A stretch of 64,000 nucleotides of DNA from Candidatus Bathyarchaeota archaeon (lineage in GTDB: Archaea > Thermoproteota > Bathyarchaeia > Bathyarchaeales > Bathycorpusculaceae): assembly GCA_963775685.1 (NCBI GenBank), contig CAVZJV010000014.1, forward strand, positions 1,440,001-1,504,000. The letters are read 5' to 3'. The notes below the pieces were generated by a model, which saw only the letters and a list, made by a program, of their open reading frames with translations, was not told where the DNA came from and did not search any database. The position numbers were made by a program, and so were the translations under genes. How positions within the stretch are numbered: the stretch's first letter is position 1; every line of letters begins with the position of its first letter. This document shows, piece after piece, positions 15,872 to 53,669 of the stretch.

Positions 15872-15900
15872 GCAGACTTGAGGATTTGAACCCACTTTTG
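15872..15900 (+). repeat. partial tRNA-end scar repeat
   Basis: gcagacttgaggatttgaaccc versus tRNA-Ala gtggactgggggggatttgaaccc. Confidence 0.5.
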
Positions 15901-16183
15901 GGCGCATTGTGCTTCTCGTTGAATTTTATTAATTACTGAGTGAATGCACATATTCAAGGATGCCTTTGATGTTTTCTTTTCTTGTGGAGACGATTAGTTT
16001 TGAATAAGCAGCCAGCATCCCTATCTCGTCGGATGTCTTGTTTTTTTCAAGCTTAACCTAAATCTAAAAAGCATCATTATAACCCTATTAGAAAAATTCA
16101 GTTTGCTAAAATCGAACCCTCCTCGAAGATGATACAATTTAAGGTTCTTTGGTCTTTCACCAGAAAAGTTGCTTTTCCATATT

Positions 16184-16459
16184 TCAGACTCTATGTTTTC
16201 TTTTGGTGGAGAACAGCAAACACTCTAATTTTTTAACGGTTAGAAGCGGAAGGTTCTGCGTGATGAGTTTTACTCCATTAATTCCAACCGCATACAAGCT
16301 GCCCCCAAAAATTATCGTTTCAAATTCGGAGTTTTTCAGCTTTAATATCTCTGGCTTCAAAGAGGGCAGCCTTAAGGTCTTCGGATATCCATTCTGCATA
16401 TTTTTTTGTGAAACCTGAAAGTGACCTATATACGACCACGATTCGCAAGGCTCAATCAT
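16184..16459 (-). pseudogene. flavodoxin-like remnant
   Basis: IIFGGSLYAVGINGVKLITQN flavodoxin_5-like segment; N-terminus out of frame and C-terminus truncated. Confidence 0.55.
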
Positions 16460-16651
16460 TAACCTTTTTGATAAAAACTTATCGAGTTCCGTGTGGTTTG
16501 TTTAAAAAGATTTAGAGTGGACTATCGGTAATCGAACTCAGAGAAAACAAGACAGTCCAACCATTTCTCTAATTTTAAAGACAGTTTATTCTAAACAGTA
16601 AGAAATTAAAGCATAACCATCTTATCTGTCCAACCACAGGAAGAATATCGC

Positions 16652-17491
16652 TTGCCAATTTTCGTAATTAAAGCAGATGGCTCCAACCAGCTATTTGATA
16701 AAGAAAAAATAATGCAGACCTGCCTAAGAATGGGCGCAAATCGCGAGGTTGCGTTTCAAGTCGCGCAAGAAGTGGAAAAAAGACTCTACGAAAACATAAC
16801 AACGCAGAAAATCCTTCAAATAATTTTCGCTCTGATGCGAAAACACAAGCCCGCTGTCAAGCACCTCTTTGACCTCAAAGAGGGAATAAGCTTAATGGAG
16901 GCCAAACCCGAATTCGAGGTTTTTGTCCGAGTGCTATTAGCTTATAGCGGTTTTCAAGTTAAGCCTAACACGATTCTTAGGGGATTGTGTGGGGAACATG
17001 AAGTTGATGCTTTAGCCACCAAAGATGGTTTAACTCATCTGGTGGAAGCAAAACATCACAATAACTACCACGCCCTCACCGGACTGGATGAGAGCCGCAT
17101 AGCCCGAGCAATAATAGAGGATGTGACAGAAGGCTACACAAATGGCGCAACTGAAATCAAAATTGACCGAGCAATGATAGTCTCCAACACCAAATACTCA
17201 GATCATGCCATAAACTATGGTCGTTGCCGCGGCATTTTGCAGGTAGGATGGTCTTCTCCTGAAGGTTTTGGGCTAAGAGACATCATTGAGAAAAACAAGT
17301 TGTATCCTTTGAGTTGCCTTCGAGGGGTCAGCAAAGAGGCAAGATTACGCCTTGTTGACGCGGGGATAGTGCTCATAAAACAGTTGCTGGAGCAGGATAG
17401 TCGATACCTCGAAAGGAGAATGGGGCTACCGCACGAAACTGTTTTGTCTTTGATTGAAAAAGCCAGACATATAACAGAAACGTTATGGTAA
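16652..17491 (+). CDS. ATP-cone domain fused to Mrr-like restriction endonuclease domain
   Basis: VIKADGS..LFDKEKI ATP cone; FE....L...GF, HEVDALA, VEAKHH. Confidence 0.85.
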   Translation: MPIFVIKADGSNQLFDKEKIMQTCLRMGANREVAFQVAQEVEKRLYENITTQKILQIIFALMRKHKPAVKHLFDLKEGISLMEAKPEFEVFVRVLLAYSGFQVKPNTILRGLCGEHEVDALATKDGLTHLVEAKHHNNYHALTGLDESRIARAIIEDVTEGYTNGATEIKIDRAMIVSNTKYSDHAINYGRCRGILQVGWSSPEGFGLRDIIEKNKLYPLSCLRGVSKEARLRLVDAGIVLIKQLLEQDSRYLERRMGLPHETVLSLIEKARHITETLW

Positions 17492-17829
17492 AATAATTAA
17501 CATTTAGCGAAAAGAAAAATGTTAATCTTATTTTTTATGAAAGTTTTAGAGTTTTAACAGCTGACGTTTCTGAATTAAGATATCTGATACTTTTTCCTTT
17601 GGGAAAGTTGGGCTAACCATAAGTACTACACACATAACAGTTTATTGCCTTTTAGGCTGGATGTAAACGGCTGTCAAAGAAAAGGTGACTGAAATAGAGG
17701 TTCAAACAGCAATTCAAAATTCTATTTTATTTTGGGGCAAAGAGGTAAGGTTAATTGAAATTAATCATCTTTCTGCTGAATTTTATCCGTTGTTAACTCG
17801 GTTCTTTTTAGTTCAGGCAGGCTTTTGAA

Positions 17830-18909
17830 ATGAGTTCGGAAACAAATCCTAAGCTTTCGAAGCCTGTTCTTTTGGTCTCAATTATTGGGCTGGTTGTTTT
17901 CGTTTTATATCTCTATTACTTTGTTGGTGTTTCTGATTTCATTTATGCTCTGGAGAAGCTGAATCCCTGGTTTTATTCGTTAGCTTTCGTTTTGGTTGTT
18001 GTCAGCGTTTTTTTTCACTCTATTGTTTGGCGTGGCCTTTTAGGTAACCTGTCTACTCATATCAGGATCAAATCGGCCTTTTTGCTCGGTTGGGTCGGAA
18101 TTTTCGTGGACAATATTCTTCCAGGCGGCGTAACCGGCGATTTATTCAAAGCTTATTGGTTGTGCAAAACTGAGGCCCATGACACAGGTAGCGTTGTTGC
18201 ATCCGTTATTGCCCATAAAATCCTAATAATTACGGTGATTTTGGCAAACACTATCGTCGGATTATTGTTATGGGTTTTGAGCTATGGGAATATGGACTCA
18301 GCAGTCTTTGGAATAATAGTAGGACTTTCTTCAATACTCATTTTTACACTAATGATGATATTCTATCTAAGCAACAATTCCCGAGCAACAGGCAAACTGC
18401 TAGATTGGCTTATTCGGTTAATCAGTTTTTTTAAGAGGAACAAATGGAACTCTTCAGGTTTTAGAGGCAAAATGGAAAAAAATCTAAGTGATTTTCACAC
18501 AGGTTTTGTTACCCTTAGAGCGAATCCACGCGGTTTATTGTTACCGGCAACTTTCACGGTTCTGGCTTGGGCTACAGATATCGTTGTTTTTATTTTGTGT
18601 TTTATGGCTTTGGGCTACAATTTACCGGCCTTCCAAGCTTTAATTGCGTACGCGTTGACTGCAACTTTGCTCGTTGAAGGTGTATCCTTTTTAGGCTTCA
18701 ACGAGATTATAAGAAGTTCTCTTTTCATAGCTTTGGGAATCCCAGCAGCCATAGGCGTGACTTCCATTCTTCTAAACAGGCTAGCAACTTTCTGGTTTAG
18801 AATGGTGGTTTCCTACGGCGTTTTTCATTGGAAAGTAATTGGGCATTATACTTTGAGGCGTTCCGCCCCTCTGGGTGATAATGCATATAATTGTTCCGAG
18901 ATTCCCTGA
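17830..18909 (+). CDS. UPF0104/lysylphosphatidylglycerol-synthase TM-domain (flippase-like) protein
   Basis: multi-TM; DNILPGGVTGD, R..TFW motifs. Confidence 0.8.
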   Translation: MSSETNPKLSKPVLLVSIIGLVVFVLYLYYFVGVSDFIYALEKLNPWFYSLAFVLVVVSVFFHSIVWRGLLGNLSTHIRIKSAFLLGWVGIFVDNILPGGVTGDLFKAYWLCKTEAHDTGSVVASVIAHKILIITVILANTIVGLLLWVLSYGNMDSAVFGIIVGLSSILIFTLMMIFYLSNNSRATGKLLDWLIRLISFFKRNKWNSSGFRGKMEKNLSDFHTGFVTLRANPRGLLLPATFTVLAWATDIVVFILCFMALGYNLPAFQALIAYALTATLLVEGVSFLGFNEIIRSSLFIALGIPAAIGVTSILLNRLATFWFRMVVSYGVFHWKVIGHYTLRRSAPLGDNAYNCSEIP

Positions 18910-19135
18910 AATGGTATTAACTCCTATTTTGCTTCCTACTTAACATTTGTTCAAATACTATCCGAGCTTTGAAAGGTGAACCAATCTAAGTTACCTAACT
19001 AAGGAACCATTGATCCATTGTTGTACTTAAAACGAAAGTAAGACTTCAGCCTATGGTGATGTTTGTTCTGTAACCTAAGTATTTATGCAACTGACCTTAA
19101 CCTAAAGTCTTGCTACGTGGAAGCGCACTGCAGAA

Positions 19136-19465
19136 CTATGCCCAACGAGTCGGCCAGTGTGAACTTTGAAAGAGCTCTGTTCTGAACACCATGAAATTTT
19201 CAAGTTGTGGAGGGCTTTCAAGTGAATCTTGGACTTTTTTGGTAGCTTGAGTAAATATTTCTTTTTCAGACTTGTTTAATGCCTCAACATCTGCCCATAA
19301 AGTCAGAATTGTTGCGGAGTTCAAGTCTTGAGAAAGCAGCGACATTGAGCCCCGAAAACCTTCAGTTTCATGGACTAAGGTGCTCAGCAAATGCTCAAGC
19401 TCTAAAAAAGCTTCTTTACGTTTATCTTTTTTAAAATTCCACTTACTCACTCTGGCTAAAACCAT
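19136..19465 (-). CDS. ABM (dimeric alpha-beta barrel) domain protein
   Basis: likely start MVLARVSKW; EGFRG...LTLW pattern. Confidence 0.65.
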   Translation of the reverse strand: MVLARVSKWNFKKDKRKEAFLELEHLLSTLVHETEGFRGSMSLLSQDLNSATILTLWADVEALNKSEKEIFTQATKKVQDSLESPPQLENFMVFRTELFQSSHWPTRWA

Positions 19466-19712
19466 AGGAAATTCACCTGGATATAATTTAAGCGGTTCTC
19501 CCTTAAATAACCTAGTAATAAATAACGCACATATCAAAATCCTCGATTAATTTAGGTGCTTGGTGGTGCATAGTCTTGATTAAGGAGTGTGTGGGGATGG
19601 ATGGTGTGGGAGTTGGATTTGTGTACGAATCGTAGTTTCCAAGCTATTTTATAAGAATCGATAAATGTTTCGTTTTTTAACTTATGTTTTGAATTATTGT
19701 TGGGGCAACTAA

Positions 19713-21297
19713 GTGAGTAAAGCTTCAGATATAGCCAAGACATCGACGAAAGGTAGTTTTCATTATCTTTGGGGTCTAGTACTCTCCACGGTGATCTCAG
19801 CTGTGGGCACTATATTCATAGCCAGGCTTCTTGGCTCTGACCAATACGGACTATACACAATCGTGTTGGCTGCGCCATCGCTCATCGTTACATTCAGGGA
19901 CTGGGGAATAAACTCCGCCATGATAAAATTCACCGCTCAATATCGTGCCGAAGAGAGAATCGCAGAAATCAGAAGCATATTTCTCACAGGCGTACTCTTC
20001 GAAGTCATCTTAGGCATAGTGCTCTCTTTGCTCTCGTTTGCATTTGCTGGTTTTTTGGCAACCAGTCTCTACAACCGACCCAGCATTGCACCTCTCATCG
20101 AGATCGCCTCATTCTCAATCCTTGCTGGCGCACTGATCACGGCAGCTACTGCAGCGTTTACAGGCTTTGAAAAGATGGAGCTAAACAGTATAATGCTTGT
20201 TTTCCACAGCATCTTTAAAACCGTTCTGATAGTTGTTCTTGGTGCTCTTGGGCTTAGGTGCTTCCGGCGCAACCACCGGCTTCATAATTAGTACTTTTAT
20301 TGGCGGATTAATCGGGATCGCTCTATTCTGGAAACTTTATGCGGGTTTGCCTAAGTCTGGTGGATATTCCCTGCAAATCAAGGCGTATTTGACTACTATG
20401 TTGACTTATGCTTTGCCCCTATCCTTTGCCGCAATCCTATCAAGTCTTTTGCCGCATTTCTACTCCTTCCTGCTGCCAATCCACTACTCCACAGACAACA
20501 CAATGATCGGAAACTATGGCATTGCCAATAACTTTGTGGTTTTAATATCCTTCTTTGCCCTACCGATCACAACAATGGTCTTCCCAGCTTTCTCCAAGCT
20601 ACATCCCATAAAAGATAAAGATGCTTTGCGCAGCGTTTTCCAGTTCTCAGTCAAGTACGCTTCGTTATTTGTTGTGCCCGTGACAGCTTTAATTATGTGT
20701 TTAGCCATACCTGCCGTGTCTACTTTATTTGGGGATACTTACAGTGCAGCCCCGCTTTTTTTGGCGTTGCTTGCAGCTCAGTATCTTTTTACTACTTTCG
20801 GATCCTTGAGCATCGGCGGTCTTCTGAGTGGTCAGGGAAACACAAGTTTCATTTTGAAAATGGCAATTTTGACTATAGGCATTGGTTTCCCCGTTGGCTA
20901 TGTTGGGATTATTTATTTTGGTGTCCTGGGGTTAATCATAACTTCGTTGATAACTGGCTTGCCAAGTTTAATTTGGGGACTGCTATTTGTCAGAAAAACT
21001 TATGGCGTCTCAGTTGATTGGCTGTCTTCTGTAAAGATTCTGGTAGCCTCAGCAATCGCAGCATCGGTGACCTTTACTGCAAATTCAATGTTTAGTTTTT
21101 CTAGTTTAGTTGAACTCGTCTTGGGCACAGCAATATTTATGATCGTTTTAGTCCCCTCCGCCTTGTTGGTCAGAACTGTTAGCCGCGACGATATAACGAA
21201 CCTGCGTGGAATGGTTGGCGGTTTAGGTGCAGTGGGTAGATTGTTTAGCAGAGTTTTGGGTGTTTTGGAAAAAATTATGGACGTCTTCAACCTATAG
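19713..21297 (+). CDS. oligosaccharide flippase (Wzx/RfbX-like), frameshifted near 20238
   Basis: ARLLGSDQYGLY and FPAFSKL motifs; two overlapping ORFs join on removing one base. Confidence 0.85.
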
Positions 21298-21376
21298 AGC
21301 GCAAACCCTTTTAGCGAACATGCTGTGATTCTTTTTAAAACAAAGAAAAACCCAAGTACTTCTCGTATAGCACAAT

Positions 21377-21434
21377 TGGACGGGGATTTGAACCCATTGC
21401 AAAGTGGAGATATCACCCGTAAATCCTCTTTTTT
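21377..21434 (+). repeat. tRNA-end scar repeat
   Basis: tggacggggatttgaacccattgcaaagtggagatatcacccgtaaatcctcttttt. Confidence 0.85.
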
Positions 21435-21591
21435 ATTTTCCAAAAACTTTTATTACTGTTTACCTTCACAATTGGCGTATTCGCACAGCTATATTGAAAA
21501 CAACGCATAACTTTTGAACAAACGCAAAGGTCAGGTTCAAATAATACTTAAATAGATTTTTACAAGCAACTAATGATAACTGGCGTTAACT

Positions 21592-23508
21592 ATGGAGCTT
21601 GAATTAATTCTTGTAGCAGTAGCTTCAGCGTTAATCCTCATAGACATAACCTTGCCATTAACATCTAAACCTCTCTACAAAAGGCTGAGCAAATACACTA
21701 TTATTCTAAGTTCACTTGCATTTGTTCTTATACTTTGGTCGTACATTCAACTACTCTTCGCCTTCGTCAGCAATGATTTTTCGTTCTCGAGCGTCTACTC
21801 TTTTAGTTCTTCAAGTCTACCCCTACTGTCGAAGGTCTATGCAAGCTGGGCCGGCGCAGGAGGCTCAATGCTGCTATTATCCATTATCTTAAGCCTTTTC
21901 TACTTTGGTGCAAAATTATCAACCTGCAAAAAGCCTGAAAGGTTCCAAACCGTTTCCAGCCAGATCTTAGGCTTTGTTGTTCTGATATTCCTAACCGTTA
22001 CACTCCTAAGAAACCCATTTGAACGGTTACCTGCCGCTATGGTTGAAGGATTAGGGCTCAATCCCCAACTTCAAAGCTTCTGGATGGCAATCCACCCTCC
22101 AATAGTCTTTTCAGCTTACGCATTTGTTGTCTTAGCGTTTGCCTTAACTCTTGCCAGCTTACACACTAACCAAGAATTGGAAAAAAACATTCTTTTCAAA
22201 ATCTCCACCTACGCATCATGGATTCTTCTAACCATAGGAATAGCGTTAGGAGGAGTATGGGCGTATGCAGTTTTAGGCTGGGGAGGATACTGGGCATGGG
22301 ATCCAGTGGAAACCGCTTCACTTCTGCCTTGGCTAATACTCACCGCCTACTTCCTAACCCGGAATCTCTCAAAGCACAAAACCAGTCTAACACAAGAATC
22401 AATGATTATGCTGACGTTTGCCAGCCTCGTTTTCCTCAGCGCCTTAACCCGCGGCGGTTTAACACAATCCGTCCACTCATACGCCACTTCAGCCATTGGT
22501 CCAATAATGCTTTCCTTCGCCGTCGCCATGATGGGTTTGTTCTTTTTCTTTTCTAAGGGCAAAAAGAAACCTCTCTTAAAACTTGAAGTCGAGCGCGCAT
22601 CGTTGATTTCCCGGTCATCCTATGTGAGCTTTTGGGCGTTAATCCTCATCTCTATAGTTTGCCTCGCTGGGTTGGCTTTCAAGGATTTCCCTTACAGCTA
22701 CTTCATCTACCCCTTCGTGCTGCTGTTTATTATTTCGCTTGCAGGGTTCAGTTTAGACGACAAAACCCACTACGCCCGCCAATTCCTAATTGTAGTTTTT
22801 TCTTTGGTCGCGGGCGGTGTGCTCTCAGCTGTTGGGGTGTTCTCGGTAAATATTCTGCTCACCCTAACTGCGCCCTTGTTCGCGGTAGTGTTTGCTTTAT
22901 TGCTTTACCGCCTTGCTAAGTCAGCAAGAAGAAAAACGTTGCTTTGGCAACGCCTGTTCGGTTTAGCCGTCGTAATTATGTTGCTGGGTGTGTTTGTTAG
23001 TGCAGGCGCAAAAACCTCCACAACCATAACCGACCTAAAACCCAACGTTCCCATAGAAGCTTTGGATGCAACAGTTGAAGTAACTAACCTTAAAATCATC
23101 AATGCAACCTCGGAAGTTTACAACGCCCAAGCCCAAAACATTATCCCGCAGTACTCTGCTGTCACTGCAGACGTAACCATCCGCCAACCAGACGCAACTT
23201 ATAGCGGCGAAGTTTCAGCGAGTTTCTACCCCAACTACGGTTTAGCCCTGACACCGCTAATAGTCAACACCCCATCAGGTGACATCTACGTGCATATGGA
23301 AATCAATGAGGAACTCTACGACATCTTGTCTGCTCAGCTCACTGGCAAAAGCACCACCCCCGCCGCCGTAACATTAACTGTCCAACATGTCCCTATGGTT
23401 TACCTCGTCTGGGTAGGCGTCACGTTGATGGTTGTTTCAATTGTTGCGGAAGGTGCCGTTGACCTACATCGAACAAGGCAGCAACAAAAATTGGTTATCC
23501 GAAGCTGA
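21592..23508 (+). CDS. ccmF: cytochrome c maturation heme lyase
   Basis: GLNPQLQ...IHPP, WAY.VLGWGGYWAWDPVETASLLPW (WWD domain), SVHS. Confidence 0.9.
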   Translation: MELELILVAVASALILIDITLPLTSKPLYKRLSKYTIILSSLAFVLILWSYIQLLFAFVSNDFSFSSVYSFSSSSLPLLSKVYASWAGAGGSMLLLSIILSLFYFGAKLSTCKKPERFQTVSSQILGFVVLIFLTVTLLRNPFERLPAAMVEGLGLNPQLQSFWMAIHPPIVFSAYAFVVLAFALTLASLHTNQELEKNILFKISTYASWILLTIGIALGGVWAYAVLGWGGYWAWDPVETASLLPWLILTAYFLTRNLSKHKTSLTQESMIMLTFASLVFLSALTRGGLTQSVHSYATSAIGPIMLSFAVAMMGLFFFFSKGKKKPLLKLEVERASLISRSSYVSFWALILISIVCLAGLAFKDFPYSYFIYPFVLLFIISLAGFSLDDKTHYARQFLIVVFSLVAGGVLSAVGVFSVNILLTLTAPLFAVVFALLLYRLAKSARRKTLLWQRLFGLAVVIMLLGVFVSAGAKTSTTITDLKPNVPIEALDATVEVTNLKIINATSEVYNAQAQNIIPQYSAVTADVTIRQPDATYSGEVSASFYPNYGLALTPLIVNTPSGDIYVHMEINEELYDILSAQLTGKSTTPAAVTLTVQHVPMVYLVWVGVTLMVVSIVAEGAVDLHRTRQQQKLVIRS

Positions 23509-23935: not shown

Positions 23936-24074
23936 AGACTCTCTTCCAAAGTTTAATTATGGGCTTTATGTTAAAAAATTTTCATAAAATTAAAGTAACC
24001 TTGGACTATATAAAATTGGAAATCTTAATAAAGACTGGCTTTCAAATTCTAAGTGGCAGTAAGGGGTTTATTTT

Positions 24075-46596: not shown

Positions 46597-46622
46597 TGGC
46601 GCCCTGGGTTGGGATTTGAGTC
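46597..46622 (-). repeat. tRNA 3'-end remnant (att-like)
   Basis: minus strand reads CTCAAATCCCAACCCAGGGCGCCA: T-loop, acceptor strand, G discriminator, CCA. Confidence 0.65.
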
Positions 46623-47011: not shown

Positions 47012-47073
47012 GGGCACAAGGTGAGATTTGAACCCTTTATCCTGTAAAGATGTCGCTTGCATTTCCTTTTTTT
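47012..47073 (+). repeat. tRNA-end scar repeat, degenerate
   Basis: gagatttgaaccc-N8-gtaaagatgtcgc-ttgcatttcc-ttttttt; same spacing as the other copies. Confidence 0.65.
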
Positions 47074-47197
47074 AAACGGTTTGGCGCTTCAGTTTTTAAA
47101 TAAGGGCATGAATGCGATTTAGTTAGCAAATTTCAATCTGATTCGTTTAGATATAATATAATTTTTTTTCAATTCAATTAGCATTTTTAATACCAAT

Positions 47198-47440
47198 TTA
47201 AGTGCAGAATCGTAGCCATCCACAGTATTCTTTGCTTGAGTCTTTATCCGCATAAGTTCGCACCACAATTTCTTTTCCAATACCTTCATCAGTAAACTGA
47301 ATTGAACCTTCCTTAAGCCATATCAAAGCATCCACATACCCATGCTCCGAGTCTGAAAGCTCATCTACCATAGATGATTCTGCCTTCTGCCTGATCATTT
47401 CCTCAATCTTTTCTTTTAACACGCTCTCAACCTTGCCCAA
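47198..47440 (-). CDS. hypothetical protein
   Basis: 80 aa, GGTGAG upstream; lies between two scar repeats. Confidence 0.55.
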   Translation of the reverse strand: MGKVESVLKEKIEEMIRQKAESSMVDELSDSEHGYVDALIWLKEGSIQFTDEGIGKEIVVRTYADKDSSKEYCGWLRFCT

Positions 47441-47949
47441 TTCTTCTCACCAATCCGATTACTTATTTGTCATAGAGTTAAATAGCTGTCGGCTAAACAA
47501 CCGCGCTCCATTAAACCCTAAATAAAAAGACGCTTGTTAGCATCTTGCTCTTTTCTGTCAGTTTCAGCAAACTGTGAAAAGCGCTAACTGGCTTGAGAGA
47601 GTTCTATATTTCCTTTGTATTGAATTTAAGCGTTTAAGAAAGCTAACCATGTGATTCGTACAAGAGGTTTTAACAAGGTATTCGTTTAGATTTTGGTTTA
47701 AATTCTTTTTAGAAATCAAAAAAAATCTGGTCAAATTCTAAGCTTGCTTCTTTTTCAGAAACCCGAACAATGAAGCATTTGTTATTTGCATAGTGTAGTT
47801 TGCCTTTTCTAAGTGGGCGTTATGTGCGTTCTTAACATTTACAATATCAAACACACTTGTTCTTTGAATAGAGACAGATTTCAGCAGTCACCACCATCTA
47901 CAATCACCTAACTTGAATCACCAGTTTTTTACTTATAAAAATGCAGGAT

Positions 47950-48004
47950 TGGGATTCAAACCCTTCTGTAAAGGAAGAAATCACCCACGTCAACCCCATT
48001 TTTT
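47950..48004 (+). repeat. tRNA-end scar repeat
   Basis: gggattcaaaccc-N8-aggaagaaatcacccacgtcaaccccatttttt. Confidence 0.7.
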
Positions 48005-48008
48005 AAAA

Positions 48009-49376
48009 CTAGACGAAAAAATAGCAAGGAAATGAAAAAATGTTAGAAGAAAAAATAGCAAAGCGCACCTTATGTGTTGATTCTCTTGATGAAGGAGCTT
48101 TCGATTTCAACCTTTTGAATATTAGGATAATCACCAACAAAACAACGACAATAACAAGTGCCACCACTATAATGATTGGTAGGTAGGCCGAAGAGTTAGA
48201 ATTGACTGGATTTGCGAATGCATAAACATTGCGAGCACCCGAGCCAATATAGACTACGCCGTTAGCAACGACAGGAGATGATTGAACTGCATGGTTGCGG
48301 TCGCTAATTGTGTAATTCCATAGTATGTCACCGCTTATAGCGTTTAAGACGTAAAGGTTGTCATCATTAGAAGCAATATACACAACTCCATTTGCAGCAG
48401 CAGGAGATGTCACTCCATTTACTGCACCAGGGGAGGTCTCGCTCAAGTTACCCAAAGATTGATTCCAAATTTTTTCACCATTATTAGTATTCAAAGCATA
48501 AACGCTGCCATCACCACTTGAGCCAACATATAAAACATCATCCAAAACAGCAGTAGGTTTCAAAAAAGAACCTAGACCAGTTTGTTTAAACAAACTGTTG
48601 CTCCATAACAATGATCCATTAACAGAGCTCAATGCGGAAACATTAGAACCAACACCTATGTACAACGTCTCGTCAACGAGGGTAGGAAACGCTGCAGAAT
48701 TGTTAGTGCTATAATCCCAAAGATTTTTGCCATTAGTTGCATTTAAGGCATAAACATCGCTATTAAATGTAAATATGGGAATAAAAACACTAGAAACTGC
48801 GAATACTACCCCATCTTGAACAATGGGCGACCCCACTCCACCTATAATATGGTGCTTCCAAACCTCTTCACCAGTTGACCCATTCAAAGCAACAAGGTTA
48901 CCGTCACTTAGGCATATATACACAATTCCATCAGCAACCGCTGGAGAAGAACTAACCGCGTCCCCAGCAGGATAGCTCCAAAGTTTAGCCCCGTTTGTAG
49001 CGTTGAAAGCATAAACATTACCATCAAAAGAACCTACATATACTACACCGCTGGCGACAGCTGGTGAAGAGCCTCTAACAGGAATAGAGTAGTTCCACAA
49101 CTTGTCTCCGTTTGCAGCGTTGAGAGCATAGAGGTTACCAGCATAGCTCACCTGGGTTCCCTTATAGATTACGTCTTCACATCCTACGTAGAGCACACCA
49201 TTGTCGATAGTTGGAGATGACCACACCCCATTGCTAGTTGCATATTTCCAAAGCAATGTAGCGCTAGGAGACAAACTATTATTCGCACCATTTGTCGCAG
49301 AAACTGGTTTAGAGATAATTAGGCTAGGCAAAGTCAGGGACATCGTAATAAGTAAGAACGCTAAGATTTTTCTCAT
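48009..49376 (-). CDS. PQQ-like beta-propeller surface protein
   Basis: repeated SSPAVA.GVVYVGS.DG.VYA.NA.NG..LW blades; signal peptide from ATG 49376 (MRKILAFLL); C-terminal TM. Confidence 0.9.
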   Translation of the reverse strand: MRKILAFLLITMSLTLPSLIISKPVSATNGANNSLSPSATLLWKYATSNGVWSSPTIDNGVLYVGCEDVIYKGTQVSYAGNLYALNAANGDKLWNYSIPVRGSSPAVASGVVYVGSFDGNVYAFNATNGAKLWSYPAGDAVSSSPAVADGIVYICLSDGNLVALNGSTGEEVWKHHIIGGVGSPIVQDGVVFAVSSVFIPIFTFNSDVYALNATNGKNLWDYSTNNSAAFPTLVDETLYIGVGSNVSALSSVNGSLLWSNSLFKQTGLGSFLKPTAVLDDVLYVGSSGDGSVYALNTNNGEKIWNQSLGNLSETSPGAVNGVTSPAAANGVVYIASNDDNLYVLNAISGDILWNYTISDRNHAVQSSPVVANGVVYIGSGARNVYAFANPVNSNSSAYLPIIIVVALVIVVVLLVIILIFKRLKSKAPSSRESTHKVRFAIFSSNIFSFPCYFFV

Positions 49377-49411
49377 AGTTACGTTTGGAATGATATAGAA
49401 TAAAAGTCTAT

Positions 49412-49530
49412 TCGTAAAACTTTCTTGACTAAATTCTGGAGAGCGATGCCGTGACTTAGTCAAACTTTCTTGACTGATAAAAGTGTTGGATTCACCACAT
49501 CACTGGAAAATGCCAAAGTTCCTTGACTTG
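49412..49530 (-). promoter_or_regulatory. three copies of the palindromic GTCAAG-N4-CTTGAC-type site upstream of the TATA box
   Basis: copies at 49412-49432, 49456-49477 and 49511-49530; TTTTAT box about 25 bp before the ATG. Confidence 0.7.
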
Positions 49531-49646
49531 GCTTGTTTTGATGTTTTATGCAGGATAAAAAAGCTACACCCCCTGGCGGTTTAGGCAGCCGTGGCATCAA
49601 ACCCTCTTTGAATGGAGAAATCACTTTCGCATAACCCCATTTTTTT
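49514..49646 (+). repeat. ~130 bp direct repeat including a tRNA-end scar (copy 1)
   Basis: cttgact..tttgatgttttatgcaggata..ctacaccccctg..gcagccgtggcatcaaaccc..tggaga..atcac; colinear with 51368-51505. Confidence 0.85.
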
Positions 49647-49670
49647 CTTCATTTTGATTTTGGCTTATAG

Positions 49671-51302
49671 TTACTTACTCTGACTCGCTTTTGCTCTTCT
49701 GCCTTTTATTATTACTTGAAGCGCAATCACAAATACTGTCACAACTGCTGCGGCAGCCACCAATCCATAGAGCACTTCAAGCCAGCTCAATTGATCCTGG
49801 GATCCATTATTTGAAGCCGTTGGACTTGGAGAAACAGTCATAGTGAACATGATTGATATTTGATGTGAACTAAAGGGGGTAATGCACCATACATAATAGT
49901 TGTTGCTGTCCTGTGTGTAGTCTTGATTTGAAGTTGGTTGACCATCAATGAATATTATTGGTTTCGTGCCATATGTTACCGAGTTTTTTGGAATAGTAAC
50001 GTTACCAAAACCTGCTGTTCCGCTTTGACCCGTTACAGTGAACGATAATGTTGTTGTAGATTCAGATTGGTTTGTTGCCAGTACCACATTTGACATTTGT
50101 GAACTGGTTATGTTTCCATGGATAGTTAGTTCAATCGTTGAACCATTATCTGTCATCGCTGGTACAGTTATTGATGAAGGAGATGGCAATGGAGTAGGAC
50201 TTGGCGTTGGAGTTGCAGTTTGAGTAGGTGTTGTTGAAGGAGTTGGAGTTGGGTTTTTTGGTGTTGGAGTCGGAGTTGGAGTGGGTGTTGGGAAAGATGA
50301 AGAGGTGTTAAATGGTGAAATGAGGGGGTAATTGTCGAAGTAGACAGTATTTCCATCCCAGTTAGCTACGAGCGGATATGGCGTGTTTCCAATTCCTGTG
50401 TGATCAATTTCTGTTCCCGAATAATCGCTCCAGTAGTTGCCTTCTTTACCGTTATCCCAGTAATTTGCATATCCAGCCCAATCGCTATTTCTTCCAAAAA
50501 GCAAGGCTTGAAAAGTGTTTTGGATGAAATTGTTATGGTAAAAAGTATTGCTTGAAGGCGGTTCAATCGCAAGACCATATTGATTATATGCGAAAGTGTT
50601 GCCGACAACGGTGTTGTTTGAACAATCGTTGTTGAGTTGTAGTCCATAATTGTATGTACTGTTCCCAAAGTAGTTACCAATAATTGTATTGTTTCCGCTT
50701 GCATCAGACAGTAATGCCCCAAAACCATTGTTTACAATGTTGTTGTCTATAATGCTGCAGCCGCTACCGCCCTCAACATATACGCCTGTCCCTCCGCAAG
50801 TCGTTATATTATTCCCTACGATGGTGTTTTCTGAACCGTATTGTAGGAAAATGCCGTTTCCGTATTGAATGGCACTTATGGTGTTGCTTGTGATGTTAAT
50901 GTAGCTTGAAAAATACTCAGCTCTTATTCCGTCTGGTTCAGTTACAGAATATGGGTATCCTTTGTTGTTGCTTACGGTGAAATTTTCGATGGAAACATAG
51001 CTCGCATTAATATAAATGATGTTTTCGGTTGCGTTGTTTGCATCTATGAATGTTGATTCCTGATTTTCTCCGATAAGGTTTATGGATTTGTTTATAACAA
51101 GAGTTTCAAAGTAGGTGCCACTTTTCACGAGTATTGTATCGCCTTGAGAGGCGTTGTCTATAGCGGCTTGAATGGTTGGGTAATCGTTTGGAACAACAAT
51201 CGTTTTGGATTGAGCTTTCACAGTAGCTGGGGGTAGTACAACTAAAGAGGCTAAAAACAACGCAACAAGAACCAGAGCAAAACTCTTGCTTAATCTATTC
51301 AT
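49671..51302 (-). CDS. NosD-like right-handed beta-helix surface protein
   Basis: signal peptide, IVVPNDYPTIQAAID, Asn-rich beta-helix, WDNGKEGNYWSDY, PT linker, C-terminal TM. Confidence 0.9.
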   Translation of the reverse strand: MNRLSKSFALVLVALFLASLVVLPPATVKAQSKTIVVPNDYPTIQAAIDNASQGDTILVKSGTYFETLVINKSINLIGENQESTFIDANNATENIIYINASYVSIENFTVSNNKGYPYSVTEPDGIRAEYFSSYINITSNTISAIQYGNGIFLQYGSENTIVGNNITTCGGTGVYVEGGSGCSIIDNNIVNNGFGALLSDASGNNTIIGNYFGNSTYNYGLQLNNDCSNNTVVGNTFAYNQYGLAIEPPSSNTFYHNNFIQNTFQALLFGRNSDWAGYANYWDNGKEGNYWSDYSGTEIDHTGIGNTPYPLVANWDGNTVYFDNYPLISPFNTSSSFPTPTPTPTPTPKNPTPTPSTTPTQTATPTPSPTPLPSPSSITVPAMTDNGSTIELTIHGNITSSQMSNVVLATNQSESTTTLSFTVTGQSGTAGFGNVTIPKNSVTYGTKPIIFIDGQPTSNQDYTQDSNNYYVWCITPFSSHQISIMFTMTVSPSPTASNNGSQDQLSWLEVLYGLVAAAAVVTVFVIALQVIIKGRRAKASQSK

Positions 51303-51339
51303 ACTTACCTTTGAAACGGAAGTTGAGATAAAAGGGTTC

Positions 51340-51386
51340 TCGTAAAACTCTCTTGACTGAGAATCGTCAAGTTTTCTTGACTAAGC
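51340..51386 (-). promoter_or_regulatory. two copies of the palindromic GTCAAG-N4-CTTGAC-type site upstream of the TATA box
   Basis: TCGTAAAACTCTCTTGACTGA and TCGTCAAGTTTTCTTGACTAAGC. Confidence 0.7.
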
Positions 51387-51505
51387 TGGCTTTGATGTTT
51401 TATACAGGATATAGAATCTACACCCCCTGACGTTTTGAGCAGCAGTGGTATCGAACCCCACAGGCAGTGGAGACTATTTCAACATCACCCGCAAACCCCC
51501 TTTCT
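51368..51505 (+). repeat. ~130 bp direct repeat including a tRNA-end scar (copy 2)
   Basis: cttgact..tttgatgttttatacaggata..ctacaccccctg..gcagcagtggtatcgaaccc..gtggaga..atcacccg. Confidence 0.85.
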
Positions 51506-51633
51506 ATTGCGCTTGTCATTTCTTTATTACCATTCATCGTGGTGTTTGGACCCCATCTAGTTATTCGCAAAGCTTAAGAATAAACAATCAACAAACTATC
51601 ATTCAGTTCGATTATCAAGGCAGGAAATTTTAA

Positions 51634-52197
51634 TTGTTGATAAAAGGGAAATATCTTTTCTCTCCAAGGGATGAGTTGAGAGACCTCGACATTAATAATT
51701 TTCCATCGATTATTGAAGCATCTGAACGTAGAATTCAAGGATGGTTCTTTAATCCCCTCGAAAAGTTTTTAGCTGACAATAATGACTTTTTTATGGCACC
51801 CGCAGTAGAATGCATTCTGGTCGACGCACTAACTGGTTTCTTCTTTGGCATTTCTGGAGATACTCACAAAGATGACTTTACAGCGTTCTTGAGCCAAAAC
51901 TTGTACGTTCAGAAAGAAGACGCAACAGAATTCTATTTGAGATTTCGATGTGGACTTTTGCATCAGGCTAACATCAAGAAATGTAGCTCCATCACGACGG
52001 AAGTTGAAAGCCTCTATCTTCAAAAGGAAAATGACGTATTATTCATAAATCCAATTGGCTTTCGAAAACAACTCTGAGAATTCTTTACAAGACATGTAAA
52101 GAGGCTTCGTGTGGAAAAAGATATTGAAATTAGGTTTAGAAAGCGTTTCTTTCATCTTTTCGTAGATGAATTCGAGGAAAGCAAATGGACGGGATAG
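51634..52197 (+). pseudogene. HEPN-like protein with in-frame TGA at 52075
   Basis: RCGLLH RxxxxH motif; the frame continues 39 codons past the TGA (EFFTRHVKRLR...FRKRF) to TAG 52195-52197. Confidence 0.6.
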
Positions 52198-52250
52198 TAA
52201 GTCAGAAACAGATTATAAGAAAGACATAGTCAATTCAATTCAATCTTTCC

Positions 52251-52514
52251 TTGGCACATGGAAGGAAGAAAAGAAAAAGTGACCTTAACTTTGGAATAAG
52301 CAGCTTTTGGCTAAATGGACTCAATAACGAAAAAGCATTGAAACTCGTTAGGGAGGATGTTGAGGTGGGTTTAGCTCAATACGAGACAAGAATAAAACTA
52401 ATTGACGTAGCGATTGAATTTAAGAATAGTAGTGAAGGCGATTTCCAAATTGAGTTTAAAATTACGTACTTAACGAAGACTGTGAACAAAATTCATCACA
52501 CCTATTTTTCTTAA
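52251..52514 (+). CDS. hypothetical protein or gene fragment
   Basis: 87 aa ORF with TTG start. Confidence 0.4.
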   Translation: MAHGRKKRKSDLNFGISSFWLNGLNNEKALKLVREDVEVGLAQYETRIKLIDVAIEFKNSSEGDFQIEFKITYLTKTVNKIHHTYFS

Positions 52515-52562
52515 AAGTCCTCCTCTAATGAAGCTGACATCAAACGTTTTTAATAATTAATT

Positions 52563-53584
52563 TAGAGTCGTGCACAATTCGTTTTTTATATTTTTGTCAT
52601 CTAATAATCTAATGAGCAGGTCTGGGCTAGAACCCGTAAATACCATTGGTTTGGTGTCTTGCAGGCGCTATAACCATTGAGTTATTGGGTCAGGCCCAGT
52701 ACTTGCTCACGCACTTCAGGCTTGTTTCCTCAAGCAACAAAGCTTTGATCGCTTCCGCATTATAACTTATGAGTCCAGCCAATACCATAGCCGACTTCTT
52801 AACCAAACCCCTCGGCCTCATCCAACATTGCTTCAAAACGTTAGCTTTTAAATGCCCGTTGAACTGCTCCACAACATAACACTTAGTCTTCAACAGCTTA
52901 ACATGCTTGATTTTCTTGCGTTTGCCTCTTCTAGGGTTACAAGCAATAACAGGCTCAGCATCAATGGCCTTGACGGCTTCTTTGTTCGTCTTTGAGTCGT
53001 AGCCCGCATCCGCTAAAACGTAATCTGCCTCCAAATCCTCAATGAGCCCTGGAAGAAACGGAGAATCATAACGGTTTCCCAGTGTGACGACAGCCTTCAA
53101 AGGCAAGCCCAGCTGGTTTACGGCGGCATGAAGCTTAAAGCCCCTGAACTTTCCTCTACTTGTATGACCCCAGCCTGCTTCCATATCGTAGAGATCTTCT
53201 AGCGGTGTCGAATCAACGATGACAACTTTTGTCGGCTCTATTAGTTGAAGCATGTCTGCAATGTTTACGAAAGTTTCTTCCAGAAGGCTTAGGTAACGTC
53301 TCCACCATCTTCCAACAGTTGTCCTATCAGGTATTCTGCTTAGACCAAGTGTTCTAGCAACATCAGAATGCTTCTTTAGATGCTCAACCACTCGTGTGTC
53401 GTTGTCTAATCCTTTTAGCCTTCATAGACAAGAATTCTAAGTGCTTTGACTCTTCCGTAACCAGGGTTTCCACGTCTTTTAGGTTCAGTTGGAACTATCG
53501 CTTTGTTGACGAAAAGCCTGATAACCTCACAGGCTTCCATACTAGAACATAATTGGGAAGCAGCTTAAATTCTGCACACCCCTA
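52563..53584 (-). mobile_element. insertion sequence (IS5/IS982-like DDE), about 1022 bp
   Basis: imperfect TIRs TAGAGTCGTGCACAATT / TAGGGGTGTGCAGAATT; AATTAATT on both flanks (52555-52562, 53585-53592). Confidence 0.8.
52690..53540 (-). pseudogene. DDE transposase, frameshifted near 53422
   Basis: VDSTP, GFKLH, LADAGYDS, VEQFNG; the N-terminal part (MEACEVIRLF...ILVY) starts at 53540 in another frame. Confidence 0.85.
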
Positions 53585-53625
53585 AATTAATTAATTGAGT
53601 TGTTGGGGGTTATAGATGAGGCTAC

Positions 53626-53669
53626 TGGGATTTGAACACCTTTTAAAGTGGAGATATCGCCACTCTCTT
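53626..53669 (+). repeat. tRNA-end scar repeat at the left edge of the provirus-like block
   Basis: tgggatttgaacaccttttaaagtggagatatcgcc. Confidence 0.8.

What the first reader, a model, noticed from the sequence alone, without database searches (positions are those of the whole stretch)
15872..53669. tRNA-anchored cassette arrays: one hybrid scar repeat delimits cargo units in two islands
Seen: at least eight co-oriented copies (15872 partial, 21377, 27714, 47012, 47950, 49584, 51438, 53626) of GGGATTTGAACCC-N7/8-GTGGAGATATCAC-CCG..A..CCC-polyT. The first part is the reverse complement of a tRNA T-arm. In island 1 it extends into TGGAC-GGGG, matching the 3' end of the adjacent tRNA-Ala. The second part is non-tRNA, near-palindromic (GGAGATATCACC), at constant spacing, and shared by both islands although their tRNA-side flanks differ. 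Each interval holds a self-contained cargo: flippase set; ccmF-cbb3; RHH plus nitroreductase; small ORF; PQQ protein; NosD protein; HEPN; viral tail block. Two scars lie within 25 bp of a cargo stop codon, like gene-attC units. Known: integrons, and tRNA-targeting elements such as tycheposons, build islands by serial integration. Inference: one family of elements, possibly the virus at 53.7 kb or its satellites, integrates repeatedly at tRNA T-arms using a conserved arm site and stockpiles genes. No integrase lies in the window, so it would act in trans.
Basis: partly seen in the sequence, partly recalled or inferred. Interest (0 to 1): 0.9.

Follow-up and report, generated by a model that had tools for sequence, protein, structure and literature searches.

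The report
tRNA-anchored integration scars in Bathyarchaeia
The repeat marks the joints left where a family of archaeal integrating elements, some of them viruses, inserted one after another into tRNA genes, building variable gene islands in a way already known from bacteria.

Summary
The repeat is real. Each copy is the 3' end of a tRNA (acceptor strand plus T-arm, antisense) fused to a conserved non-tRNA module of about 33 nt, GTGGAGATRTCACCCGCA..CCCC-T6. The genome is a Bathyarchaeia archaeon with about 22 copies. The family occurs in 29 of 31 related genomes searched.

Island 1 (window about 15.1-30.0 kb) hangs on tRNA-Ala. Island 2 (from about 44.0 kb) hangs on tRNA-Leu(tag), 10.6 kb beyond the window.

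Both islands keep their position in relatives but differ in content. Neighbouring copies are almost always co-oriented (53 of 54 pairs). Integrase C-terminal remnants sit beside several copies, one at window 44404-44534. A 0.93-kb integrase-less unit bounded exactly by two copies recurs in other arrays and genomes.

Best reading: composite att junctions from serial site-specific integration (tandem accretion). The module is the element-side arm. Many units are decayed or non-autonomous cassettes.

This is an archaeal variant of bacterial tandem tRNA/tmRNA islands (tycheposon islands, Dehalococcoides ssrA islands, CIMEs), not an integron. Excision was not observed, and what binds the module is unknown.

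The parts
15091..30002 (.). Island 1: variable region downstream of the 3' end of tRNA-Ala(tgc)
   Evidence: Synteny with G001, G003, G016 and G014 ends at window 14867-15091 and resumes at the tRNA. In G001 window 17.5-30.0 kb is replaced by about 2.4 kb.
15872..15935 (+). Most distal copy of island 1, degenerate (T-arm with 1 mismatch, module barely recognisable)
   Evidence: It is not recovered by nhmmer.
21377..21434 (+). Junction copy: shortened tRNA-Ala 3' end plus full module plus T6
   Evidence: (E 6e-14).
27714..27773 (+). Junction copy: shortened tRNA-Ala 3' end plus module plus T7
30003..30079 (-). tRNA-Ala(tgc), the intact anchor of island 1
   Evidence: ARAGORN; Rfam tRNA, 68.2 bits.
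43990..64000 (.). Island 2 (window part): variable region that runs on to tRNA-Leu(tag) at window-equivalent 74637-74724
   Evidence: Core synteny with G001, G012, G003, G016 and G041 ends at window 43944-43990. tRNA and integrase beyond the window.
44404..44534 (+). Remnant of an integrase C-terminus (residues 384-427 of the 429-aa integrase, 67-75% identity)
   Evidence: tblastn; the sequence was read.
44587..44630 (+). Very degenerate junction copy (tRNA-Leu-like 3' end, T-arm with 2 mismatches, decayed module)
   Evidence: The assignment rests on its position next to the integrase remnant and is inferred.
47012..47073 (+). Junction copy (degraded tRNA-Leu 3' end plus degenerate module plus T7)
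47040..47970 (+). 0.93-kb integrase-less cassette bounded by two copies. It recurs as a discrete unit in other arrays and genomes.
   Evidence: Identity to two G041 loci is 85.7% and 83.3%, and those two loci are 94.3% identical to each other. The flanks are unrelated, at 32-45%.
47950..48004 (+). Junction copy (tRNA-Leu-type 3' end TGCAGGATTGGG..., module, T6)
49584..49646 (+). Junction copy of the GCAGCCGTGGCATC subfamily, with a conserved left arm (CAGGATAAA...CCCCCTGG)
51438..51503 (+). Junction copy of the same subfamily, with about 9 nt inserted in the module
   Evidence: E 0.03.
52251..52514 (+). Baseplate gp25-like gene, read as a remnant of an older provirus unit
   Evidence: PF04965, E 3.9e-7. 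'Remnant' is inferred.
52547..53601 (-). Insertion sequence (DDE_Tnp_1 transposase at 52690-53391). It abuts copy 53626 and probably removed that copy's acceptor part.
   Evidence: Pfam; many copies at 70-83% identity across the genus.
53626..53663 (+). Junction copy at the distal end of the provirus-like element. The second half of the module is missing.
   Evidence: It shares only a 12-nt T-arm match with tRNA-Leu(tag).
53743..64000 (+). Provirus-like element (ParB-like, ATPase, minor tail and tail proteins). It continues to the integrase and tRNA-Leu(tag) beyond the window.
   Evidence: PHROGs and Pfam; integrase.

Best explanation
The copies are composite attachment-site junctions. They were left by repeated site-specific integration of one Bathyarchaeia-specific family of tyrosine-integrase elements, tailed proviruses among them, into the 3' ends of tRNA genes.

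Each incoming element carries an attP with three parts: a left arm next to its integrase gene, a copy of the tRNA 3' end (acceptor strand and T-arm, where crossover must occur), and a conserved right arm of about 33 nt, the 'module'. Integration restores the tRNA. The displaced tRNA end stays behind at the far end of the element, now joined to that element's module.

Repeated rounds stack units downstream of the tRNA, newest nearest the tRNA. Every internal joint is therefore old-element arm, tRNA piece, then new-element module.

Older units lose their integrase and most genes by deletion. Because they keep both arms, they remain substrates for an integrase supplied by another element, and at least one such unit has moved between arrays.

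Shown: the anatomy, tRNA anchoring, orientation, integrases and their remnants, variable content, and discrete recurrence of one cassette.

Inferred: the position of crossover within the tRNA piece; that the module is bound by the integrase (perhaps its N-terminal zinc ribbon) or an accessory protein, with the T-run as a terminator; and mobilisation in trans.
For: 1. In relatives the copies equal tRNA-Ala from its 3' end through the T-stem plus 1-2 nt, then switch to the module where the gene continues as tRNA.

2. In G000, copy 800659 matches tRNA-Leu(cag) over 28 nt at 96%, and the match continues into 7 flanking nt. Copy 2388640 resembles tRNA-Cys, which lies 4.3 kb away. Copies 2268699 and 2279199 share TGGCGGGCG with a tRNA-like gene at 2285019.

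3. Intact integrases (PF00589) end 66-68 nt from the 3' ends of tRNA-Leu(tag) and tRNA-Leu(cag). They are 73% identical to each other, and a module-bearing copy lies 21.0 and 23.5 kb away respectively.

4. Integrase C-terminal remnants lie directly on the tRNA-piece side of copies at window 44404-44534 and at C14:800402-800595 and C14:1181507-1181692. A fourth, at C14:2295437-2295637, lies beside a tRNA-Leu-like 3' segment rather than a copy. More occur in G041 and in other MAGs.

5. A tRNA on the predicted strand and side lies within 40 kb for 12 of 15 (G003), 14 of 22 (G000), 8 of 10 (G001) and 5 of 11 (G016) copies. Null means are 4.6, 5.8, 3.1 and 2.9.

6. In 80 loci from named Bathyarchaeia MAGs, 53 of 54 adjacent copy pairs are co-oriented, with a median spacing of 1.3 kb.

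7. Both islands keep their place but not their content in relatives.

8. The cassette at 47040-47970 is sharply bounded by copies and recurs in a tRNA-Ala array and a second array of G041 and in the tRNA-Leu array of G012.

9. The 13- and 14-nt module words lie in the copies for 7 of 8 and 10 of 11 matches at up to 1 mismatch. The 12-nt cores are less exclusive, at 9 of 22 and 8 of 19.

10. Three viral contigs carry the full repeat. In L077 it lies between an integrase of the same family (40% identity) and tail genes.
Against: - No excised circle, empty site or tandem junction was seen. A junction pattern found nothing in metagenome contigs.
- 8 of 22 G000 copies have no detected tRNA in the predicted place within 40 kb, and G016 (5 of 11) does not differ from its null (fraction 0.13). 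That null treats clustered copies as independent, and some contig lengths in it were guessed.
- Copy 53626, the supposed distal end of the provirus, shares only a 12-nt T-arm match with tRNA-Leu(tag). An abutting IS explains this only by inference.
- Island 1 holds no integrase or remnant at all. Its cargo (ccmF, cbb3 oxidase) looks like ordinary cellular genes.
- Only 4 of 134 copies in the MAG loci have an integrase remnant within 250 nt. Decay alone therefore has to be very thorough.
- 4 of the 13 loci holding the cassette's core gene show no copy within about 2 kb.
- Nothing here shows what binds the module.
Confidence: 0.8

Rival explanations
1. A dedicated cassette platform that works like an integron. 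The T-arm plus module is itself the recombination site of small, primarily integrase-less cassettes, which a resident integrase inserts and shuffles in trans at any tRNA-anchored array. Proviruses merely use the same site.
For: - Spacing between copies is short: median 1.3 kb, with many at 0.5-1.5 kb.
- Only 4 of 134 copies have an integrase remnant beside them.
- One 0.93-kb unit moved as a discrete unit and sits in arrays anchored at different tRNAs.
- The G041 tRNA-Ala array holds copies with Leu-type and Cys-type tRNA pieces, so insertion need not match the anchor tRNA's acceptor sequence.
Against: - No single-strand fold of the site: 0 consensus pairs among 17 copies, and z-scores of -0.74 to +1.43 in 12 DNA folds.
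- Gene orientation within units is mixed.
- No integrase sits at the head of the tRNA-Ala array in the window.
- Integrase and gp25 remnants show that larger autonomous elements decayed in place.
- The 8-kb loci bias spacing towards short values.
Confidence: 0.25
2. The copies are fossils only. They record past integrations but no unit is mobile now. Shared cassettes spread between arrays by homologous recombination or gene conversion across the similar copies.
For: - Many copies are degenerate (15872, 44587, 51438, 53626).
- No excision product was found.
- Parts of island 2 are collinear between G000 and G012, as expected for inherited old units.
Against: - The two G041 copies of the cassette are 94.3% identical, while G000 differs from them by 14-17%.
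- Their flanks are unrelated on both sides.
- Intact integrases of the family are present next to tRNA genes in the same genome.
- Copies of about 60 nt with about 60% column identity are poor substrates for homologous recombination.
Confidence: 0.12
3. A family of small RNA genes, or a terminator or regulatory repeat, that resembles tRNA T-arms by descent or chance and has nothing to do with recombination.
For: - The T-run at the 3' end is the most conserved feature.
- TATA-like words lie 20-25 nt upstream of several copies. This was read by eye and not tested.
- The copies lie in intergenic DNA.
Against: - No Rfam family matches at gathering threshold, nor at E<=5.
- No consensus structure.
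- The left part matches the specific neighbouring tRNA's acceptor end, not just the T-arm.
- Integrase remnants abut the copies.
- There is no fixed relation to the orientation of flanking genes.
Confidence: 0.03
4. Ends of a transposon or MITE family moved by a transposase such as the DDE enzyme at 52690-53391.
For: DDE transposase genes lie next to two copies: window 53626, and L048 at 17667.
Against: - Copies are direct, not inverted: 53 of 54 adjacent pairs are co-oriented.
- The IS recurs on its own, as a unit of about 1.05 kb, at many sites.
- The tRNA anchoring is not explained.
Confidence: 0.02

Closest known systems
Tandem ssrA genomic islands of Dehalococcoides (PMC3146451; passages read)
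   Same: - Arrays of islands lie downstream of one small-RNA gene, each bounded by a direct repeat of its 3' end.
- A conserved element-side motif lies next to each repeat and does not align with the gene, which places insertion in the T-loop region.
- Some islands lack the integration module and were proposed to be cis-mobilizable.
   Different: - There the recombinase is a serine recombinase, the single target is tmRNA, the motif is 15 bp and the host is a bacterium.
- Here a tyrosine recombinase family uses several tRNAs (Ala, Leu, Cys, Arg, Asn seen), the module is about 33 nt, the host is an archaeal class, and units are often about 1 kb.
Tycheposon islands of Prochlorococcus (bioRxiv 10.1101/2020.12.28.424599; passages read)
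   Same: - Islands are built at a few tRNA genes by serial integration.
- Partial tRNAs separate neighbouring elements.
- Degenerate elements and fragmented integrases occur deeper in the island.
- The cargo consists of niche genes.
   Different: - Tycheposons are defined by a shared hallmark gene set (integration plus replication modules) in cyanobacteria.
- No such set was seen here.
- The passages read describe no conserved arm module shared across tRNA targets.
Accretion and cis-mobilizable elements (CIMEs) of streptococcal ICEs and IMEs (review PMC5704250; passages read)
   Same: - Integration is followed by decay to a unit that keeps its att sites but has lost its integrase.
- A further element then integrates into the att site, giving tandem arrays with chimeric internal att sites.
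   Different: - Those elements transfer by conjugation in bacteria.
- Here no transfer genes were seen, tailed proviruses share the site, and arrays reach five or more units.
Integrons
   Same: Arrays of short gene-bearing units are separated by a repeated recombination site, and the order of units varies between relatives.
   Different: - The site here does not fold as a single strand.
- It contains a tRNA fragment.
- Arrays start at tRNA genes rather than at intI-attI.
- Genes point both ways.
tRNA-integrated tailed proviruses of Bathyarchaeia (PMC11705971 and PMC10848311; passages read)
   Same: These are head-tail (pro)viruses with integrases; PMC11705971 bounded its proviruses using integrase, tRNA gene and direct repeat.
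   Different: The passages read describe single proviruses. They do not mention arrays, a conserved arm module or integrase-less units. Their supplementary tables could not be opened.

Membership tests
tRNA-targeting tyrosine-recombinase integrative elements | A PF00589 integrase gene at the element end next to the target tRNA | tested here: met
   The integrases at C14:1513280-1514569 and C14:823176-824120 end 68 and 66 nt from the 3' ends of tRNA-Leu(tag) and tRNA-Leu(cag). None lies at tRNA-Ala in the window.
tRNA-targeting tyrosine-recombinase integrative elements | A direct repeat of the tRNA 3' end at the distal boundary | tested here: met
   tRNA-Leu(cag): 28 nt at 96%. Exact tRNA-Ala 3' ends of 23-26 nt occur in the copies of relatives. 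For the window's provirus there is only a 12-nt T-arm match.
tRNA-targeting tyrosine-recombinase integrative elements | The target tRNA gene stays intact after integration | tested here: met
   tRNA-Ala and both tRNA-Leu genes are called full length by ARAGORN and by the Rfam tRNA model.
tRNA-targeting tyrosine-recombinase integrative elements | Excision to a circle carrying attP | not testable with these tools
   No sequencing run was listed, and a junction pattern found nothing in metagenome contigs.
Tandem accretion arrays with cis-mobilizable elements | Units bounded by att-derived repeats in direct orientation | tested here: met
   53 of 54 adjacent pairs are co-oriented in 80 MAG loci. 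All 8 window copies are on the + strand.
Tandem accretion arrays with cis-mobilizable elements | Units that lack an integrase but keep both ends | tested here: met
   None of the window units between copies has PF00589. The left-arm motif and the module are both kept in units 47950-49584 and 49584-51438.
Tandem accretion arrays with cis-mobilizable elements | Evidence of decay from autonomous elements | tested here: met
   Integrase C-terminal remnants lie beside copies, and there is a gp25 remnant.
Tycheposons | The shared hallmark gene set (tyrosine recombinase plus replication module) that links all members | not tested
   No comparison with tycheposon proteins was made. No primase, helicase or polymerase was seen among the window units scanned.
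Integrons | attC site: imperfect inverted repeats that fold as a single-stranded hairpin | tested here: not met
   RNAalifold gives 0 pairs for 17 copies. Twelve DNA folds give z-scores from -0.74 to +1.43.
Integrons | intI next to attI at the head of the array, with co-oriented promoterless cassettes | tested here: not met
   No integrase lies at tRNA-Ala. The integrase at tRNA-Leu is part of a 21-kb provirus-like unit. Genes in the units lie on both strands.
SSV-type archaeal integrases (int gene split by integration) | attP lies inside the integrase gene, so integration splits it in two | tested here: not met
   An uninterrupted 429-aa ORF lies next to the tRNA, and homologues of 413-452 aa cover 97-100% of it. 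That this feature defines the family is recalled from memory.
Described RNA families (Rfam 15) | A match to a covariance model | tested here: not met
   Only tRNA-Ala matches in the window at gathering threshold. Nothing matches at E<=5 in 46.5-54.0 kb.

The most novel reading that the evidence does not exclude
Bathyarchaeia run a cassette system that works like an integron but is built from different parts. The universal recombination site would be a double-stranded site of about 60 bp made of a tRNA T-arm core plus the conserved 33-nt module. Tyrosine integrases supplied by proviruses or other elements would capture, excise and shuffle single-gene, integrase-less cassettes among arrays anchored at different tRNA genes. 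This would make the site a class-wide marker of the flexible genome.
Probability: 0.3. Interest if true: 0.8.

Novelty: new variant of a known kind. Interest (0 to 1): 0.55.

Why it matters
Bathyarchaeia are abundant, uncultured sediment and soil archaea whose gene flow is poorly understood. A short, class-specific sequence that marks every integration joint gives a simple way to delimit their genomic islands. It also allows integration events to be counted and ordered, and cargo to be told from core genes in MAGs. Examples of such cargo are the cbb3 oxidase set, PQQ and beta-helix surface proteins, a TIR protein and TBP paralogues.

If the integrase-less units move in trans, this would be an archaeal counterpart of bacterial cassette and CIME systems. 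Its recombination site is small enough to test in vitro.

The general principle, serial integration at tRNA genes, is established. The interest therefore lies in the conserved arm shared across tRNA targets, the small unit size and the lineage.

Tried and rejected
- **RNA gene.** Rfam gave nothing beyond tRNA-Ala. There is no consensus fold on the + strand; the minus strand was not run through alifold. ARAGORN with introns at low stringency gave only noise.
- **Mini-tRNA or split-tRNA reading.** Checked by eye. No consistent acceptor or anticodon pairing was seen, so it was dropped.
- **attC-like single-strand folding.** Not supported.
- **Direct repeat between copy 53626 and tRNA-Leu(tag).** Only 12 nt.
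- **Viral contigs.** The strict T-arm-plus-module pattern gave 0 hits. The 16-nt module word hit 36 stretches, but only 3 loci carry a full-length repeat by nhmmer; two more gave a partial module match at E 4e-4.
- **Metagenome contigs.** A pattern for a circle or tandem junction of the 0.93-kb cassette gave 0 hits. This is no evidence against circles.
- **Sequencing runs.** The tool could not be reached four times. When it answered, no run was listed, so read laying was never used.
- **The search of earlier findings.** Closed.
- **The 80-aa ORF of the mobile cassette.** No Pfam family, and the best Atlas hit scored only 0.76.
- **Tracing the module to a tRNA anticodon or D-arm.** No convincing match by eye.
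- **Core-type classification script.** It stopped with an error after five arrays, and only those five are used.
- **Literature.** The searches were Bathyarchaeia + integrase + tRNA + integrated, tycheposon, aloposon, cis-mobilizable + accretion, and the module as a word (16 papers held a term and the 10 listed were all unrelated). None describes this module. Supplementary files, for example the genomic-island tables of PMC11697101, could not be opened and may list such islands.

Full report
**Observation**

Reading the eight listed places shows one co-oriented pattern. It runs: a stretch resembling the antisense of a tRNA 3' end, ending in GGGATTTGAACCC; then 7-8 variable bases; then GTGGAGATATCAC, CCG..A..CCC and a run of 6-7 T.

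The T-arm word occurs 9 times at up to 2 mismatches, all on the + strand, against 1.63 expected (0 of 100 shuffles reach 9). The module word occurs 5 times against 0.73 expected.

An nhmmer profile iterated on the whole genome finds 22 copies at E<=0.05, 19 on one strand label and 3 on the other. Copy 15872 is too degenerate to be recovered.

**Organism**

The assembly is 3.06 Mb in 14 contigs. It has two SSU rRNA genes scoring about 1480 bits on the archaeal model. ARAGORN finds 41 dispersed tRNA genes and no tmRNA.

Homologues of its integrase that carry a name are nearly all from Candidatus Bathyarchaeota/Bathyarchaeia.

**What the two halves of the repeat are**

In relatives, copies downstream of tRNA-Ala read (A/G)TGGAC(T/C)GGGGGGGATTTGAACCCC(C/T)G, identical or nearly so to the antisense 3' end of that gene. 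They then continue with the module, where the gene continues with its variable loop and anticodon arm.

The window's island-1 copies are the same sequence with 3-4 G lost.

In G000, copy 800659 matches tRNA-Leu(cag) over 28 nt at 96%. The match continues into 7 flanking nt. Copy 2388640 resembles tRNA-Cys, 4.3 kb away. Copies 2268699 and 2279199 share their acceptor part with a tRNA-like gene at 2285019, which scores 28.5 bits, below the family cut-off.

Island-2 copies are degraded tRNA-Leu ends, for example TGCAGGATTGGGATTCAAACCC against TGCAGGGGGTGGGATTCGAACCC.

The module is not tRNA-derived as far as I could see. At up to 1 mismatch its 13- and 14-nt words lie in the copies for 7 of 8 and 10 of 11 matches. 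The 12-nt cores are less exclusive, at 9 of 22 and 8 of 19.

Other partial tRNA repeats in this genome (tRNA-Pro, Thr, Val and others) lack the module. It therefore belongs to one family of elements, not to tRNA integration in general.

**Anchors and integrases**

Island 1 ends at tRNA-Ala(tgc), window 30003-30079.

Beyond the window lie a 429-aa ORF with PF00589 and a weak N-terminal zinc-ribbon match, at C14:1513280-1514569, and tRNA-Leu(tag) at C14:1514637-1514724. These are window-equivalent 73280-74569 and 74637-74724. All island-2 copies lie downstream of this tRNA and are co-oriented with it.

A 73%-identical integrase sits in the same way at tRNA-Leu(cag). Four copies lie 23.5-36 kb downstream of that tRNA.

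tblastn with the integrase finds C-terminal remnants directly on the tRNA-piece side of copies at window 44404-44534, C14:800402-800595 and C14:1181507-1181692. The window remnant is followed by a spacer and a very degenerate ninth copy at about 44587-44630. A fourth remnant, at C14:2295437-2295637, lies beside a tRNA-Leu-like 3' segment rather than a copy.

The same is seen in a tRNA-Ala array of G041, which has three remnants, one of them 60 nt from the tRNA. It is also seen in several named MAG loci.

**Distribution and orientation**

A sequence-only covariance model finds the family in 29 of 31 genomes, G000 included. That is 17 of 18 others of the genus and, at E<=0.01, 10 of the 11 other genera drawn from the order. 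I saw the module by eye in representatives of five of those genera.

An exact T-arm-plus-module pattern hits at least 117 stretches of GTDB genomes. Of the 80 listed, 77 are labelled Bathyarchaeota/Bathyarchaeia, one 'uncultured archaeon' and two bacterial.

In those 80 loci (537 kb) there are 134 copies. Adjacent copies are co-oriented in 53 of 54 pairs. The median spacing is 1.3 kb, though 8-kb loci bias this downwards.

tRNAs on the predicted side and strand inside the loci are Leu(tag), Arg(cct), Ala(tgc), Cys(gca) and Asn(gtt). This holds for 17 of the 134 copies; 3 have only another tRNA and 114 have none within the 8 kb.

In four genomes with full tRNA lists, 39 of 58 copies have the predicted tRNA within 40 kb, against about 16 expected. 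G016 alone is not significant. The null ignores clustering and used some guessed contig lengths.

**Variable content at fixed places**

The flanks of island 1 are syntenic in G001, G003, G016 and G014, but the interval differs in each:
- G001: window 17.5-30.0 kb is replaced by about 2.4 kb.
- G003: 15 kb.
- G016: 25 kb.

Units in relatives' arrays carry PQQ/Ig-like surface proteins, a glycosyltransferase, CBS, an Ssb-like protein, TBP, ferredoxin and a transposase, but no integrase.

Island 2 starts where synteny ends, at window 43944-43990, in five relatives. In G012 the same core gene and tRNA-Leu(tag) bracket a 29-kb island. Its distal part is collinear with window 46.0-48.0 kb and its proximal part differs. 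This is as expected if new units enter at the tRNA.

**A unit that moved**

Window 47040-47970 runs from the module of copy 47012 to the T-arm of copy 47950. It is 85.7% and 83.3% identical to two loci in G041, which are 94.3% identical to each other. Similarity falls to 32-45% on both sides.

One G041 copy lies in a tRNA-Ala array 5.3 kb from the tRNA. The other lies in a second array 235 kb away. A shortened copy lies in the tRNA-Leu array of G012.

The unit carries no integrase, only small ORFs without family. Its right end bears a Leu-type tRNA piece even inside the Ala array. That array also holds a Cys-type copy (partial output).

Of the 13 loci fetched for this unit's core gene:
- 2 hold the whole unit between two copies;
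- 7 have at least one copy in the fetched 3.8-5 kb;
- 4 have none.

**Decay**

Between copies 51438 and 53626 lie an unassigned ORF, a gp25 baseplate gene and an IS. I read this as the remnant of an older provirus. The IS ends about 25 nt from the T-arm of copy 53626. That may explain why this copy lacks the tRNA-Leu acceptor part, but the link is inferred.

To the right of copy 53626 lie ParB-like, ATPase and tail genes. They run towards the integrase.

Three IMG/VR contigs carry the full repeat. In L077 it lies between an integrase of the same family (40% identity) and a tail module. I cannot tell whether that is a free attP or an internal joint.

**Mechanism**

The anatomy fits classical integration by a tyrosine recombinase. 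The attP is left arm, tRNA 3' piece, module. The attB is the tRNA gene. The distal joint is chromosomal tRNA end plus module.

After further rounds, each internal joint consists of the older unit's left arm and tRNA piece followed by the newer unit's module. Such joints are attP-like, so any unit between two joints could be excised and re-inserted by an integrase made elsewhere.

Left arms share motifs in subfamilies: CAGGATAAA...CCCCCTG, and a GGGTTGAA..TTCAACCC palindrome.

The site does not fold as a single strand, which argues for double-strand recombination and against an attC-like mode.

What binds the module is not shown. My guess at even odds is the integrase's N-terminal part or an accessory protein, with the T-run acting as a terminator.

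**Comparison with the literature**

The closest descriptions I read are:
- the Dehalococcoides ssrA islands, which have tandem islands, a conserved element-side 15-bp motif next to each repeat, and islands without integration modules proposed as cis-mobilizable (PMC3146451, passages);
- tycheposon islands (bioRxiv 10.1101/2020.12.28.424599, passages);
- accretion and CIMEs (PMC5704250, passages).

Papers on Bathyarchaeia viruses, proviruses and Bathy-6 genomic islands do not mention the module or such arrays in the passages I read (PMC10848311, PMC11705971, PMC11697101). Their supplements were not available to me.

Searches for the module as a word found only unrelated papers among the 10 of 16 listed.

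I therefore rate this a new variant of a known kind. The process is familiar. The lineage, the arm shared across tRNA targets and the prevalence of kilobase-sized integrase-less units are not described in what I could search.

**Limits**

- No excision product was observed.
- No sequencing run was listed.
- Gene calls are my own greedy ORF picks.
- Several assignments of degenerate copies rest on position and partial similarity.

Noticed in passing
window 8000-33720: Relative to G001, the block holding the left flank, island 1, tRNA-Ala and window 30.0-33.7 kb is inverted with respect to its surroundings. In G001, window 33.7-44.0 kb lies inverted next to window 8.0 kb, and window 1.4-7.8 kb lies inverted after 33.7 kb. 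The breakpoints, near 7.8-8.05 kb and 33.70-33.72 kb, were not examined.
   Followed up: partly
window 52547-53601: An IS with a DDE_Tnp_1 transposase, about 1.05 kb, is present in many copies across the genus (at least 6 in G035) at 70-83% identity. A second DDE transposase lies just after a copy in G016 (L048, 17905-19086).
   Followed up: partly
window 44654-45784 (-): A 376-aa protein with a CAP12/Pycsar-type TIR domain (E 1.7e-5) lies in the distal part of island 2. Homologous DNA lies at other positions, and in a different order relative to neighbouring units, in relatives such as G010 and G012.
   Followed up: no
window 21592-27535: A ccmF-like gene plus cbb3-type oxidase genes (COX1, FixO, FixP_N) form one unit between two copies in an archaeon of a class usually described as anaerobic. 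This unit is not present at this place in G001.
   Followed up: no
window 16652-17491 (+): A protein combining an ATP-cone, an Mrr-like restriction endonuclease fold and an AF1548-like C-terminal domain. It is conserved at this place in G001 (82% DNA identity).
   Followed up: no
G000 C14:2966-2988, 101764-101790, 1528488-1528532, 1623883-1623927, 2192859-2192897: Classical partial tRNA repeats (Pro, Thr, Val) without the module. They point to other families of tRNA-integrating elements in the same genome. The tRNA-Pro(ggg) element has its own integrase, 51-60% identical to the tRNA-Leu one.
   Followed up: partly
G000 C14:73060-73130, 658530-658600, 2300180-2300250 and 655590: A further repeat of about 60-70 nt (gcatttgctcttt...cagcaaaccc) lies beside four copies of the junction repeat. 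It was not identified.
   Followed up: no
G000 C14:2285019-2285076 (-) and 2295296-2295331 (+): Two likely tRNA genes missed by ARAGORN, possibly intron-bearing. One is below the Rfam cut-off at 28.5 bits. The other is seen only as a tRNA-Leu-like 3' segment next to an integrase remnant. Each would anchor otherwise orphan copies.
   Followed up: partly
L123 and L138 (genome contigs): Two contigs with the exact T-arm-plus-module pattern sit in MAGs labelled Gemmatimonadales and Sulfotelmatobacter. They are probably mis-binned Bathyarchaeia contigs, but this was not checked.
   Followed up: no
L047:2055-2615 (G003 tRNA-Ala island): A full TATA-binding protein gene (PF00352, E 7e-62) and an Ssb-like OB-fold protein lie as cargo inside a relative's island.
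   Followed up: no
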